Below are positions 2-2,711 of a stretch of 24,463 bases of DNA, one piece after another. Numbering within the stretch: the stretch's first letter is position 1; every line of letters begins with the position of its first letter. This DNA is from a virus. Its lineage: Duplodnaviria; Caudoviricetes. The stretch covers positions 1-24,463 of the IMG/VR virus record IMGVR_UViG_3300044448_000080; one strand, given 5' to 3'. A model generated the notes under the pieces. The model was not told the DNA's origin and did no database searches. It worked only from the letters and a program-made list of their open reading frames with translations. A program made the translations under genes and the position numbers.

Positions 2-517
2 AATAAGATCAAAGGAAACCCAAGCAATCCTCGAATAATTAAGAATGATAAATTCAAGAAGTTAGTTAAGTCTATTAGGGAGTTCCCTGAGATGTTAAAA
101 CTTAGACCTATTGTAGTAGATGAAGATATGATTGTCTTAGGTGGCAATATGAGATTAAAGGCAAGTAAAGATGCAGGGCTTAAAGAAGTATGGATAGAAA
201 TAGCAGAAGGACTTACTGAAGAACAAAAGAAAGAATTTATAGTAAAAGACAATGTAGGTTTTGGAGAATGGGAATGGGATATACTTGCCAATGAATGGGA
301 TAGTGTACAACTTGCTGAATGGGGATTAGATGTGTGGCAGAATGAAGATGACTTAGAAGAACCTGATTTTAATGAATTAACAGATGATAGTAAAAAAGAT
401 GCAGTTATTAAAATAACATTTAAAAATGAAGAACATTTAGAAGATGCAGAAAAAGAAATAGCAAACATAGTAAGTAAATATGAAAAAGCATTTTATTCAG
501 TTAGTTCAGAAAAGTGA
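2..517 (+). CDS. ParB/Sulfiredoxin-like N-terminal domain protein (5' truncated)
   Basis: The frame is open from position 2 (NKIKGNPSNPRIIKNDKFKKLVKSIREFPEMLKLRPIVVDE...LGGNMRLKA). The NPR, PIVVD and GxxR motifs fit ParB-N, so the true start lies upstream of the window, not at 92. Confidence 0.8.
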   Translation, partial: NKIKGNPSNPRIIKNDKFKKLVKSIREFPEMLKLRPIVVDEDMIVLGGNMRLKASKDAGLKEVWIEIAEGLTEEQKKEFIVKDNVGFGEWEWDILANEWDSVQLAEWGLDVWQNEDDLEEPDFNELTDDSKKDAVIKITFKNEEHLEDAEKEIANIVSKYEKAFYSVSSEK

Positions 518-1098
518 GATTAGAAAAAGCTTCATACAAGGCAGTTAAGTATGCCTGTCTTAAATTTCATTATGCTAAGACAGTTCCTGTAACTAATATA
601 TCATATTCAGTGTTTAATAATAAGAATGAATGGTGTGGTGTTATTTGTTATGGTTTAGGTGCAAATTATAGATTAGGCAGTACTTATGGAGTAGTGTCAG
701 GACAATTTTTAGAATTAACTAGAATGGCTTTAAATGGAAAGCAAGAAAGTACAAGTAAGGCAATGGCAATATCTATTAAACTATTAAAGAAACATAAACC
801 TTTAGTAAGGCTTCTAATTAGCTATGCAGATAAAGGACAAAAACATTTAGGTATAATTTACCAAGCTACAAATTGGTTTTTTGTAGATGAAAGTAGAAGT
901 AGTGGATGGGAGATATTTTACAAAGGGAAATGGAGACATGACAGAATCTTGACATCATTATCAAACCAAATAAAAAATAACATTCAAAAAAGAAGAAAGT
1001 CAGGAAAATTTAAATATATATATCCACTAACAAAAGAATTAAAAGATAGGTGTTTAGAATTAAAAAAACCATATCCTAAAAATGCGAGTAAAGCATAA
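514..1098 (+). CDS. mom: Mom-like DNA adenine-modification enzyme (GNAT fold)
   Basis: Motifs FHY, GVICYGxGA, LELTRM, LISYADxGQxHxGIIYQATNW and a C-terminal KYIYPL...PYPK match Mom-family proteins. GTGA overlap with the upstream stop. Confidence 0.8.
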   Translation: MRLEKASYKAVKYACLKFHYAKTVPVTNISYSVFNNKNEWCGVICYGLGANYRLGSTYGVVSGQFLELTRMALNGKQESTSKAMAISIKLLKKHKPLVRLLISYADKGQKHLGIIYQATNWFFVDESRSSGWEIFYKGKWRHDRILTSLSNQIKNNIQKRRKSGKFKYIYPLTKELKDRCLELKKPYPKNASKA

Positions 1099-1158
1099 AG
1101 AGTAATGCGTTGGCTATTCCAAGTCAAAGAAGGGGTGCAATTCCACCTACTCGCTCAA
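1084..1158 (+). tRNA. Atypical tRNA-Gly(TCC)-like element
   Basis: Acceptor GCGAGTA (1084-1090)/TACTCGC (1148-1154); D stem GCAT/ATGC; anticodon stem TTGGC/GTCAA with 8-nt loop TATTCCAA; T arm GGGG-TGCAATT-CCACC with a bulged A; discriminator T1155; CAA instead of CCA. Confidence 0.75.
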
Positions 1159-1168
1159 AATATAAAAA

Positions 1169-1522
1169 ATGGAACAAAATAGAACAAAGATTAACAAAGA
1201 GAGGTTGTTAAAAGCATTAGAAAGTTCACTAGGAGTAATAACTACAGCATTAAAGGTTTGTGATTTATCAAGAACAAACTTCTATAAGTGGTTAAAAGAA
1301 GATGAAGAATTTAAAGCAAAAGTAGAAGAAATAGAAAACATACAAAAAGACTTTATTAAGTCAAAGTATTATGAATGTGTAAAAGACAAAGTGCCTTCAG
1401 TTGTTATACACGCAGCTAAGACACGACTTGGTTGGAACGAAACAAATAGAGTAGATATAACGTCAGGCGATAAAGCTATTAATATGCCTGTTATAACATT
1501 TGTTGAAACTGATACTGAATAA
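1169..1522 (+). CDS. terS: Terminase small subunit (HTH)
   Basis: N-terminal HTH (GVITTALKVCDLSRTNFYKWLKEDEEF), C-terminal VDITSGDK motif, overlaps terL. Confidence 0.7.
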   Translation: MEQNRTKINKERLLKALESSLGVITTALKVCDLSRTNFYKWLKEDEEFKAKVEEIENIQKDFIKSKYYECVKDKVPSVVIHAAKTRLGWNETNRVDITSGDKAINMPVITFVETDTE

Positions 1523-2711
1523 AAAATATAATCCGCTATTTGAATCAGATGCTCGTTATTTTATAATAACAGGCGGTAGGGGATCAGGTAAATCTTTTGC
1601 TGTCACAGTATTTCTTACTTTACTTACAATGACTAAAGGAATAAGGATATTGTTTACAAGGTTTACAATGACATCAGCTCATTTATCAATCATTCCTGAA
1701 TTCTTAGAAAAGATAGGCCTACTAGGATTTGAAGATGTCTTTAGTATTAACAAAGCAGAAGTATTAAACACAAGCAATCAATCAGACATTCTATTTAGAG
1801 GTATTAGAACTTCAGCAGGAAATCAAACAGCCAGTTTAAAGTCTTTGCAAGGAATAAGTTGTTGGGTATTAGATGAAGCCGAAGAACTTATTGATGAAGA
1901 TATATTTGATACTATTGATTTAAGTATTAGAGAAAAGGATATACAGAATAGGATCATACTTATATTGAATCCTGTTACGAAGGAGCATTGGATTTATGAT
2001 AGGTTCTTTCAGAGCAAAGGCGTAGAAGGGGGTTTTAATGGCATTAAAGACAATATATGTTATATCCATAGTACATACCTAGACAACAAAGATAATCTCT
2101 CTAAGAGCTTCCTAGACCGTATTAAGAGCATAAAACATAATAACTTTAAAAAGTACCAGCATAAGATTCTTGGTGGCTGGTTAGATAAAGCCGAAGGAGT
2201 GGTCTTTGAGAATTGGAGTATTGGTGAATTTAATCCTGATGGACTTCAAACATCTTGTGGAATGGACTTTGGCTTTAGTGTAGACCCTGATAGTTTAACT
2301 GAAGTTGCTATTGATAAAAAGAAAAGAAAGATTTATTTAAAAGAGCATATCTATAAAAATGGATTAAAATCACAAGAACTTGCTCAGATTGTTTTAGATA
2401 AAGTAGGTGATAAACTTATAATTGCTGATAGTGCCGAACCAAGACTGATTGCGGATCTTAGGCATTTAGGAGTTAATATCAAGCCAGTTAAAAAAGGAAC
2501 TATTGAAAGCGGTATAACTCGTATGCAAGATTTTGAATTAGTGATAACCCCTGAATCAACTAACATAGCAAAGGAGCTGAATAATTATGTGTATGCAGAT
2601 AAGGGTTCTAAATTATATCATGATTCATATAACCATGCAATAGATTCTGCAAGATATTGTATAATATACCATTTAGATAATCCTAATGCAGGGAAGTATT
2701 TTGTGCAATAA
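1500..2711 (+). CDS. terL: Terminase large subunit (PBSX/SPP1-like)
   Basis: Walker A GGRGSGKS, Walker B WVLDEAEE, motif III LNP, nuclease GMDFGFSVDP, DSAEP and NHAIDSARY. The exact start is uncertain. Confidence 0.95.
   Translation: MLKLILNKKYNPLFESDARYFIITGGRGSGKSFAVTVFLTLLTMTKGIRILFTRFTMTSAHLSIIPEFLEKIGLLGFEDVFSINKAEVLNTSNQSDILFRGIRTSAGNQTASLKSLQGISCWVLDEAEELIDEDIFDTIDLSIREKDIQNRIILILNPVTKEHWIYDRFFQSKGVEGGFNGIKDNICYIHSTYLDNKDNLSKSFLDRIKSIKHNNFKKYQHKILGGWLDKAEGVVFENWSIGEFNPDGLQTSCGMDFGFSVDPDSLTEVAIDKKKRKIYLKEHIYKNGLKSQELAQIVLDKVGDKLIIADSAEPRLIADLRHLGVNIKPVKKGTIESGITRMQDFELVITPESTNIAKELNNYVYADKGSKLYHDSYNHAIDSARYCIIYHLDNPNAGKYFVQ

What the first reader, a model, noticed from the sequence alone, without database searches (positions are those of the whole stretch)
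514..1158. Mom-like DNA hypermodification enzyme with its own non-translational tRNA-Gly-like RNA
Seen: a full cloverleaf at 1084-1158 directly at the end of the mom-like gene. It keeps the bacterial GlyRS identity set (G1-C72, C2-G71, G3-C70, discriminator U73, TCC in the anticodon loop). It departs from translating tRNAs elsewhere: A instead of U8, no GG in the D loop (AAAGAGTA), an 8-nt anticodon loop, T loop TGCAATT instead of TTCRANY, a 4-bp T stem with bulged A1145, and no encoded CCA. Known: Mu Mom makes N6-carbamoylmethyladenine (a glycinamide-purine) and has a GNAT fold; GNAT-fold Fem transferases use aminoacyl-tRNA; staphylococci have non-proteinogenic tRNA-Gly with altered D/T features that bind EF-Tu poorly. 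I also recall recent work reporting Gly-tRNA-Gly as the Mom donor, which should be verified. Inference: the phage encodes a dedicated, chargeable, EF-Tu-evading glycyl carrier feeding its DNA modification enzyme, a two-part enzyme-plus-RNA anti-restriction system that standard tRNA scanners could miss. Intact stems alongside altered loops argue against simple decay.
Basis: partly seen in the sequence, partly recalled or inferred. Interest (0 to 1): 0.93.

Follow-up and report, generated by a model that had tools for sequence, protein, structure and literature searches.

The report
Phage glycine tRNA tied to Mom
This uncultured phage carries a rebuilt glycine tRNA right behind its Mom-type DNA-modifying gene, a pairing that recurs in phages and prophages of several bacterial phyla, and the RNA is likely a private glycine carrier that is predicted to avoid the ribosome's delivery factor and feed the enzyme that would disguise the phage DNA.

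Summary
Confirmed. ORF 514-1098 is a Mom-family enzyme (Pfam E 8e-35; Mu Mom structure E 3e-9). 1084-1156 is a tRNA-Gly-like cloverleaf that ARAGORN misses.

The pairing is tight. The RNA lies beside 80/80 close Mom homologues. In reverse, 76/80 RNA-led hits have mom within 1.2 kb, against 0/80 canonical viral tRNA-Gly. Sibling phages with another cassette in the same slot lack it (0/66). It is optional: 28/67 Mom loci in prokaryote genomes and 0/45 Mu-like loci have it.

Stems covary and glycine identity is nearly invariant. A bulged A disrupts the EF-Tu-read T stem in 78/78 distinct mom-led copies versus 0/10 host tRNA-Gly. Antisense copies carry promoter- and terminator-like motifs.

Two corrections: lack of CCA is normal for Bacteroidota hosts, and the D/T-loop changes form one compensated elbow swap (A18/G55). 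Mu's essential R151 is not conserved.

Best reading (0.72): a dedicated, non-ribosomal Gly donor for Mom. Charging, EF-Tu evasion and transfer are untested. Not found in ten literature searches; this scan noted similar Mom-linked tRNA-Gly RNAs before in other phages.

The parts
2..517 (+). ParB-N-domain gene (open at the 5' end of the window; ATG at 92), the constant gene upstream of the variable DNA-modification cassette slot
   Evidence: Pfam ParB_N E 2e-4; PHROG ParB-like/nuclease/MTase-fusion hits; ParB match in 74 of 80 terS-picked sibling loci
514..1098 (+). Mom-family GNAT enzyme, 194 aa. Keeps equivalents of Mu H58, Y59, R111, S124, D149, Y159 (H19, Y20, R70, S81, D106, Y116). Mu R151 is not kept (G108/Q109).
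   Evidence: PF25680 E 8e-35; phrog_1384; PDB 8bv8 Mu Mom E 3e-9; invariant columns with a 99%-identical Mu Mom; AF2 model pLDDT 86
1084..1158 (+). tRNA-Gly-like RNA gene (G1 = 1084, U73 = 1155, C74 = 1156; CCA not encoded), overlapping the last 15 nt of mom
   Evidence: RF00005 35.8 bits; covariation; model R1 78 bits; the only R1 match in the record
1132..1147 (+). T arm: 4-bp stem with bulged A1145 (no 51-63 pair), and T loop TGCAATT whose G55 (1137) covaries with D-loop A18 (1101)
   Evidence: bulged A in 78/78 distinct mom-led copies and 0/10 host tRNA-Gly; 18/55 covariation
1115..1122 (+). 8-nt anticodon loop with TCC (1118-1120); C35/C36 fixed in the family, position 34 and loop length free
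1169..1522 (+). Terminase small subunit-like gene, the constant gene downstream of the cassette slot (context, not part of the module)
   Evidence: phrog_4044 E 2e-4; 80 close relatives
1500..2711 (+). Terminase large subunit (context)
   Evidence: Pfam Terminase_3 E 2e-32

Best explanation
The phage encodes a Mom-family enzyme together with a structurally rebuilt tRNA-Gly that is likely matured and glycylated by host enzymes, is predicted to bind EF-Tu poorly because of a bulged A in its T stem, and would therefore serve as a reserved Gly-tRNA donor that Mom uses to modify phage DNA against restriction. SHOWN here: Mom identity; the cloverleaf with compensatory changes; invariant glycine identity; the bulge; tight two-way linkage to mom; promoter and terminator motifs on antisense copies; CCA encoded mainly where hosts encode CCA. 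FROM PRINT: Mu Mom transfers glycine from Gly-tRNA-Gly to adenine N6 (PMC13219725); T-stem pairs 49-65, 50-64 and 51-63 set EF-Tu affinity (PMC11231383, PMC3239215); EF-Tu sequesters Gly-tRNA from a GNAT transferase (PMC7826273). INFERRED: expression; RNase P/3' processing and CCA addition; charging by the host dimeric GlyRS; weak EF-Tu binding; use by this Mom; adenine as the target base.
For: Linkage: model R1 hits 80 of 80 close Mom loci. 76 of 80 loci found by an RNA-only pattern have mom within 1.2 kb, 75 within 150 nt, and 3 of the 4 misses are at contig ends. Canonical viral tRNA-Gly(TCC): 0 of 80. Among 80 loci picked by terS, the RNA occurs in all 13 with mom and in 1 cut contig, and in 0 of the other 66. 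13 sampled genes from those other cassettes were mostly glycosyltransferase-like (10), plus an MTase, a TGT-like and an unknown. The RNA sits downstream-sense, downstream-antisense or upstream of mom, and accompanies Mom clades on both sides of the deepest split. Structure: 99.8% of cells paired, 14 of 20 pairs with two-sided change, covariation 0.733 against 0.24 shuffled and at most 0.18 slid. Built to be charged: G1-C72/C2-G71/G3-C70 77/78, U73 77/78, C35C36 78/78. CCA is encoded in 19 of 21 non-Bacteroidota prokaryote copies and 0 of 7 Bacteroidota copies, as in host tRNAs. Not built to decode: bulged A 78/78; anticodon TCC 58, ACC 18, CCC 2; 7-nt loop only 40/78; fully canonical 0/78 against 10/10 host tRNA-Gly. 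Transcribed as a unit: antisense copies have TAnnTTTG within 35 nt upstream in 26/42 (2.2 expected) and a hairpin plus T-run downstream in 28/42, against 1/67 sense copies.
Against: No direct evidence of expression, charging, EF-Tu affinity or transfer. Mu Mom works with all three host tRNA-Gly isoacceptors (PMC13219725 section 10), and many Mom genes have no RNA nearby: 39 of 67 prokaryote loci, 0 hits in 45 Mu-like loci of which only 26 had 300 nt or more downstream, and 13 of 16 sampled cultured phages. The RNA is therefore not required for the chemistry. Two actinophage copies (BarretLemon, Appa) lack the bulge. One solo copy, L185, has no mom in a 54%-complete record. The effect of a bulge on EF-Tu binding is extrapolated; I found no measurement. 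Mu's essential R151 is not conserved in this enzyme. This copy can fold a slipped, unbulged T stem. The loci are related, so counts overstate independence.
Confidence: 0.72

Rival explanations
1. The RNA is a translation-competent top-up tRNA-Gly that refills the common Gly-tRNA pool drained by Mom. It is tied to mom but not private to it.
For: Explains the linkage equally well. Many copies keep U8, GG, TTC and a 7-nt TCC loop, and ARAGORN of 60 tested loci as tRNA. The elbow appears preserved.
Against: The bulge is kept in 78/78 copies while host and canonical viral tRNA-Gly have none. 8-nt loops (35/78), non-U33 and ACC anticodons (18/78) are tolerated, although tRNA-Gly(ACC) is described as banished from nearly all organisms (PMC6720975). 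A plain copy of host tRNA-Gly would do this job, yet 0 of 80 canonical viral ones sit by mom.
Confidence: 0.12
2. The RNA is a glycyl donor or decoy shaped to survive or absorb host tRNA-directed defences (anticodon nucleases, T-arm-recognising nucleases, GNAT toxins acting on Gly-tRNA). The odd features serve nuclease evasion rather than EF-Tu evasion.
For: Anticodon loops are highly variable and never GCC. tRNA-cleaving defences countered by phage tRNAs are known (PMC12409363, search listing only).
Against: A general decoy should not track mom so tightly or vanish when the cassette is swapped. No defence link was tested.
Confidence: 0.07
3. The RNA regulates Mom rather than feeding it: an uncharged tRNA mimic that binds and restrains the enzyme, or a cis processing signal whose RNase P cut leaves mom mRNA without a stop codon.
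For: In 33 of 34 distinct sense copies of the close set (window included), the mom stop codon lies inside or beyond the RNA.
Against: Antisense copies with their own promoter and terminator motifs, and upstream copies, exclude a purely cis role. Invariant C35C36 in an otherwise free loop and host-matched CCA point to selection for GlyRS charging.
Confidence: 0.06
4. It is a decaying tRNA pseudogene or an integration-site remnant carried along with the cassette.
For: No tRNA finder call in this window; several canonical positions changed.
Against: Compensatory changes in all four stems, tertiary covariation, a shared derived bulge across several phyla, and orientation changes accompanied by promoter and terminator motifs.
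Confidence: 0.02

Closest known systems
Phage Mu Mom (6-NcmdA adenine hypermodification; PDB 8bv8; Silva et al. 2026, PMC13219725)
   Same: Same Pfam family. H58, Y59, R111, S124, D149 and Y159 equivalents are invariant. The glycine identity of the linked RNA matches Mom's Gly-tRNA-Gly donor.
   Different: About 25% identity; R151 replaced; sits in a ParB-terS cassette slot. Mu and 45 Mu-like loci have no linked RNA and use host tRNA. Product and target motif of this enzyme are unknown.
Staphylococcal non-proteogenic tRNA-Gly NP1-NP3, donors for FmhB/FemA/FemB (PMC7826273, PMC3239215)
   Same: Keep G1-C72, U73, C35, C36; altered T stem at the EF-Tu-read pairs; serve a GNAT-fold aminoacyl transferase.
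   Different: Those are chromosomal, use weak A-U pairs at 49-65/50-64/51-63 in an intact 5-bp stem, and feed cell-wall synthesis. This family is phage-borne, gene-linked to its enzyme, keeps G49-C65, uses a bulged A, has a free anticodon loop and would feed DNA modification.
Ordinary phage-encoded tRNA-Gly(TCC)
   Same: Cloverleaf, glycine identity, usually the TCC anticodon.
   Different: 78 of 80 sampled have a fully paired 5-bp T stem and 0 of 80 lie by mom.

Membership tests
Mom family (PF25680) | Profile match above curated cut-off | tested here: met
   120.8 bits against cut-off 27.1; phrog_1384 E 1e-43
Mom family (PF25680) | Mu active-site residues H58, Y59, R111, S124, D149, Y159 | tested here: met
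   H19, Y20, R70, S81, D106, Y116 invariant in alignment A4 with a 99%-identical Mu Mom
Mom family (PF25680) | Mu R151 (R151A inactive in PMC13219725) | tested here: not met
   Aligns to G108, or to conserved Q109 with a one-residue shift. The same holds for most non-Mu Mom-like proteins aligned, so it lowers 'same chemistry as Mu', not family membership.
Mom family (PF25680) | GNAT fold with HTH-like insertion | tested here: inconclusive
   AF2 model pLDDT 86 with an alpha/beta pattern and two short helices at 143-156; no fold comparison was obtained; sequence match to 8bv8 E 3e-9
Mom family (PF25680) | Transfers glycine from Gly-tRNA-Gly to adenine N6 in dsDNA | not testable with these tools
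   needs biochemistry
tRNA-Gly (GlyRS substrate) | G1-C72, C2-G71, U73, C35, C36 identity set (PMC7826273) | tested here: met
   present in the window; 77-78 of 78 distinct copies
Canonical elongator tRNA | U8, G18G19, U33 with 7-nt anticodon loop, TTC T loop, 5-bp T stem | tested here: not met
   window copy departs at A8, GG, loop length, T loop and T stem; 0 of 78 copies fully canonical against 10 of 10 host tRNA-Gly
Staphylococcal-type non-proteogenic tRNA-Gly | A49-U65, U50-A64, A51-U63 weak T stem | tested here: not met
   family has G49-C65, mostly G50-C64, and a bulged A: works like, is not a member
Staphylococcal-type non-proteogenic tRNA-Gly | Charged by GlyRS, weak EF-Tu binding, preferred by the transferase | not testable with these tools
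   needs aminoacylation, ternary-complex and transfer assays

The most novel reading that the evidence does not exclude
A widespread two-part phage anti-restriction module: a DNA-modifying GNAT enzyme plus its own non-coding cofactor RNA, a new tRNA-Gly-derived family whose invariant T-stem bulge shuts out EF-Tu and may be read by Mom. It would be a virus-encoded private aminoacyl-tRNA channel into DNA chemistry, portable between distant Mom clades and host phyla, and testable in cultured phages.
Probability: 0.6. Interest if true: 0.9.

Novelty: new variant of a known kind. Interest (0 to 1): 0.82.

Why it matters
Mom's glycine donor was identified only recently, and in the parts of that paper I read the donor is host tRNA. 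In cells most Gly-tRNA is expected to be held by EF-Tu, so how a phage gets enough to modify its genome is an open point. This module offers a direct answer and a natural experiment: a defined RNA family with one invariant structural mark, present or absent among sibling phages, and found in cultured phages (Salinibacter B2_17; bulge-less variants in Arthrobacter BarretLemon and Microbacterium Appa). It would give some phage tRNA-Gly annotations a non-translational function, reveal genes that tRNA finders miss (ARAGORN missed 34 of 60 tested), and suggest a natural design for a chargeable tRNA kept out of translation.

Tried and rejected
RNA-seq: five marine RNA runs held 6-13% of the words. 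Four were laid and gave only contigs of relatives running on into flanking DNA; they show no mature end, so nothing for or against expression.

Fold search of the AF2 model was never obtained because the queue was full.

No TAnnTTTG site on the + strand upstream of the RNA in this window, and sigma70-like sites are at chance level. This copy probably comes from the operon transcript (inferred).

My first heuristic RNA finder chose the wrong strand or place in several loci and was replaced by model R1.

'+1 frameshift suppressor' (8-nt loop; the concept is recalled): rejected, because loop length varies from 6 to 9 across the family.

'RNA belongs to terS or packaging': rejected.

'No CCA as a sign of non-translation': rejected.

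The look-ups of earlier scan findings by sequence and by place returned nothing.

A literature precedent for an A18-G55 elbow pair was not found (none of the 10 listed papers held that term).

The Mom tree is the quick IQ-TREE version (careful run unfinished), midpoint-drawn, and labels 'none' from 1.2-2 kb flanks only.

Full report
OBSERVATION. The window is a linear, about 81% complete virus record with terminase, portal and head genes. ORF 514-1098 is a Mom-family protein (Pfam PF25680 E 8e-35; phrog_1384; Mu Mom PDB 8bv8 E 3e-9). It lies between a ParB-N gene and terS/terL. It starts at 1084, 15 nt before the end of the ORF. Rfam's tRNA model scores it above gathering (35.8 bits), ARAGORN misses it, and 2 of 200 shuffles fold as well. 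It is the only match to my family model in the record.

LINKAGE TO MOM, FOUR WAYS. (1) Mom-led: of 203 viral relatives found, the best 80 (55-87% identity) were kept. A covariance model built from 30 distinct copies hits all 80, 59 on mom's strand and 21 antisense; L051 lies about 430 nt downstream. The model's training copies come from this set and match by construction, but the RNA was visible by eye at the end of mom in 79 of 80 before the model existed. ARAGORN calls only 26 of the first 60. (2) RNA-led: a pattern for the 4-bp bulged form, blind to proteins, matched an estimated 630 stretches in IMG/VR. Of the 80 loci with long flanks, 76 have a Mom gene within 1.2 kb (42 same strand, 34 antisense). 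Three misses are at contig ends, and one of these has a weak partial Mom match. L185 is a solo copy. The other 40 loci had only 300-nt flanks and were not counted. More than half of these Mom proteins are under 40% identical to ours. (3) Negative control: 80 canonical viral tRNA-Gly(TCC) loci, same flank and same Mom HMM, gave 0 with mom. (4) Slot control: among 80 loci picked by the terS protein (92-100% identity), 13 carry mom in the ParB-terS slot. The RNA occurs in those 13 and in one contig that begins inside the RNA, and in none of the other 66. Three of the 13 are contigs already in set 1, and one of the 66 has only 83 nt upstream. Thirteen sampled genes from the other cassettes were mostly glycosyltransferase-like (10), with an MTase, a TGT-like and an unknown. 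The slot looks like a swappable DNA-modification cassette, and the RNA belongs to the mom version.

RANGE. In prokaryote genomes, 28 of 67 Mom loci have the RNA (a 29th hit is an ordinary tRNA). They include Bacteroidota, Acidobacteriota, Chloroflexota (RNA upstream of mom), Gemmatimonadota, a Clostridium and others, by record title. Of 16 sampled cultured phages, 3 have it: Salinibacter B2_17 (annotated tRNA-Gly), Arthrobacter BarretLemon (unannotated) and Microbacterium Appa (antisense tRNA-Gly(CCC)). Mu and 45 Mu-like loci do not (only 26 had 300 nt or more downstream). A quick tree of 91 dereplicated Mom proteins puts RNA-bearing loci on both sides of the deepest split and needs 10 gains or losses, at least 7 forced by strong branches. 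The RNA is common and widespread but optional.

ANATOMY. On 30 distinct 4-bp-type copies, 99.8% of cells pair, 14 of 20 pairs show two-sided changes, and the covariation score is 0.733 against 0.24 for shuffles and at most 0.18 for slid partners (related sequences inflate such figures). Parsing 78 distinct mom-led copies (50 viral, 28 from prokaryote genomes) gave the following. Glycine identity is nearly fixed (first three acceptor pairs 77/78, U73 77/78, C35C36 78/78). A bulged A two pairs from the base of the T stem is present in 78/78, in either a 4-bp or a 5-bp stem. Everything tied to decoding drifts: anticodon TCC 58, ACC 18, CCC 2, never GCC; 7-nt loop 40/78; U8 33/78; TTC T loop 50/78. 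None is fully canonical, whereas 10 of 10 Bacteroidota host tRNA-Gly are. The two actinophage copies have an unbulged stem. Pattern-led copies were excluded from these counts because the pattern selected for the bulge.

TWO CORRECTIONS. CCA is absent from 10 of 10 Bacteroidota host tRNA-Gly genes and from all 7 Bacteroidota prophage copies. It is encoded in 19 of 21 copies from other phyla, where the host tRNAs sampled from five such genomes all end in CCA. This argues for a matured, chargeable 3' end. D-loop position 18 and T-loop position 55 covary: G/U 102, A/G 40, G/G 1, A/U 10, other 4, among 157 of 160 distinct copies parsed. G18-psi55 is a known elbow contact (PMC4810234, passages), so the window's 'no GG' and 'TGC' are probably one compensated change that keeps the L shape (inferred).

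EXPRESSION SIGNALS. Antisense copies have the Bacteroidota -7 promoter motif TAnnTTTG (PMC7366714, one passage) within 35 nt upstream in 26 of 42 (2.2 expected by shuffle) and a hairpin plus T-run downstream in 28 of 42. Sense copies have them in 9 and 1 of 67. The RNA is thus probably a separately transcribed gene in many phages and would act in trans. The window copy has no such promoter and is probably cut from the operon transcript. A Bacteroidota host is inferred from these motifs in relatives, the missing CCA and the hosts of related prophages; five such genomes have the dimeric GlyRS. Public RNA runs were uninformative.

MECHANISM. Mu Mom transfers glycine from Gly-tRNA-Gly to adenine N6, accepts all three E. 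coli isoacceptors and rejects Gly-tRNA-Ala (PMC13219725: abstract, sections 10, 13, 14, 38 and passages read; supplement file 2 searched, file 1 is a scan and could not be read). T-stem pairs 49-65, 50-64 and 51-63 set EF-Tu affinity (PMC11231383, PMC3239215; passages). In S. aureus, EF-Tu competitively inhibits the GNAT transferase FmhB, and non-proteogenic tRNA-Gly with weak T stems escape it (PMC7826273; passages). The one invariant oddity here falls exactly on those pairs. I therefore commit to a dedicated glycyl donor: host enzymes mature and charge it, EF-Tu binds it poorly, and Mom moves its glycine onto phage DNA (0.72). All of these biochemical steps are inferred. The enzyme keeps six of seven listed Mu active-site residues but not R151, so its product may differ. 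The AF2 model is confident, but no fold comparison was obtained.

NOVELTY. Ten paper searches were run; bear on this pairing and listed no report of a phage-encoded tRNA linked to Mom. Term look-ups in the Mom paper and in a jumbo-phage review (PMC7824862, passages) found none either. The library lacks most subscription papers, and the unread supplement could bear on this. PMC6720975 (passages) supports the rarity of tRNA-Gly(ACC). The 2023 Mom preprint and PMC12409363 were seen only as listings. Earlier notes of this scan on other, mostly T4-like phages proposed the same idea with mixed outcomes. I did not test their RNAs; my reading was written before seeing them. Both ingredients have precedents, so I class the module as a new variant of a known kind, with interest 0.82.

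Noticed in passing
window 1084-1098 and close-set loci L001-L080: In 33 of 34 distinct sense copies the mom stop codon lies inside or beyond the RNA. 5' processing of the RNA from a shared transcript would leave mom mRNA without a stop codon, a possible brake on Mom levels.
   Followed up: partly
L092:2411-2483, L102:2416-2488 versus window 1084-1156: Sibling phages whose Mom is only about 32% (or 52%) identical to ours carry a nearly identical RNA with compensatory acceptor-stem changes, suggesting the enzyme gene was swapped while the RNA stayed.
   Followed up: partly
window 2-1522; L081-L160: The ParB-terS interval is a hypervariable DNA-modification cassette slot: Mom plus RNA, glycosyltransferase-like genes, methyltransferases or a TGT-like gene in otherwise near-identical phages.
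   Followed up: partly
L185:1201-1272 (minus strand): A solo bulged RNA with a TAnnTTTG motif 18 nt upstream, directly before a terS-like gene, with no mom in the 35-kb, 54%-complete record.
   Followed up: partly
L253, upstream of the RNA; 9 of 67 sense copies: Some sense copies have a TAnnTTTG motif within 35 nt upstream (9 seen, 0.2 expected), probably inside the 3' end of mom: a possible internal promoter for the RNA.
   Followed up: no
L451:1501-1572 (Dehalococcoidia genome G013): Another odd tRNA-Gly(TCC)-like gene with acceptor-stem mismatches, no bulge and no mom within 1.5 kb.
   Followed up: no
L106, about 120 nt upstream of terS (1355-1474): A non-coding gap with a hairpin after a ParB-MTase gene; no match to model R1 or to Rfam at gathering score.
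   Followed up: partly
L051:1350-1416 (minus strand): A copy with a 3-nt D loop, displaced about 430 nt from mom, while a GCGAGG-starting remnant sits at the usual place.
   Followed up: no
L346, L368, L383 (genome G009): One Chitinophagaceae genome bin holds three separate mom-plus-RNA loci.
   Followed up: no
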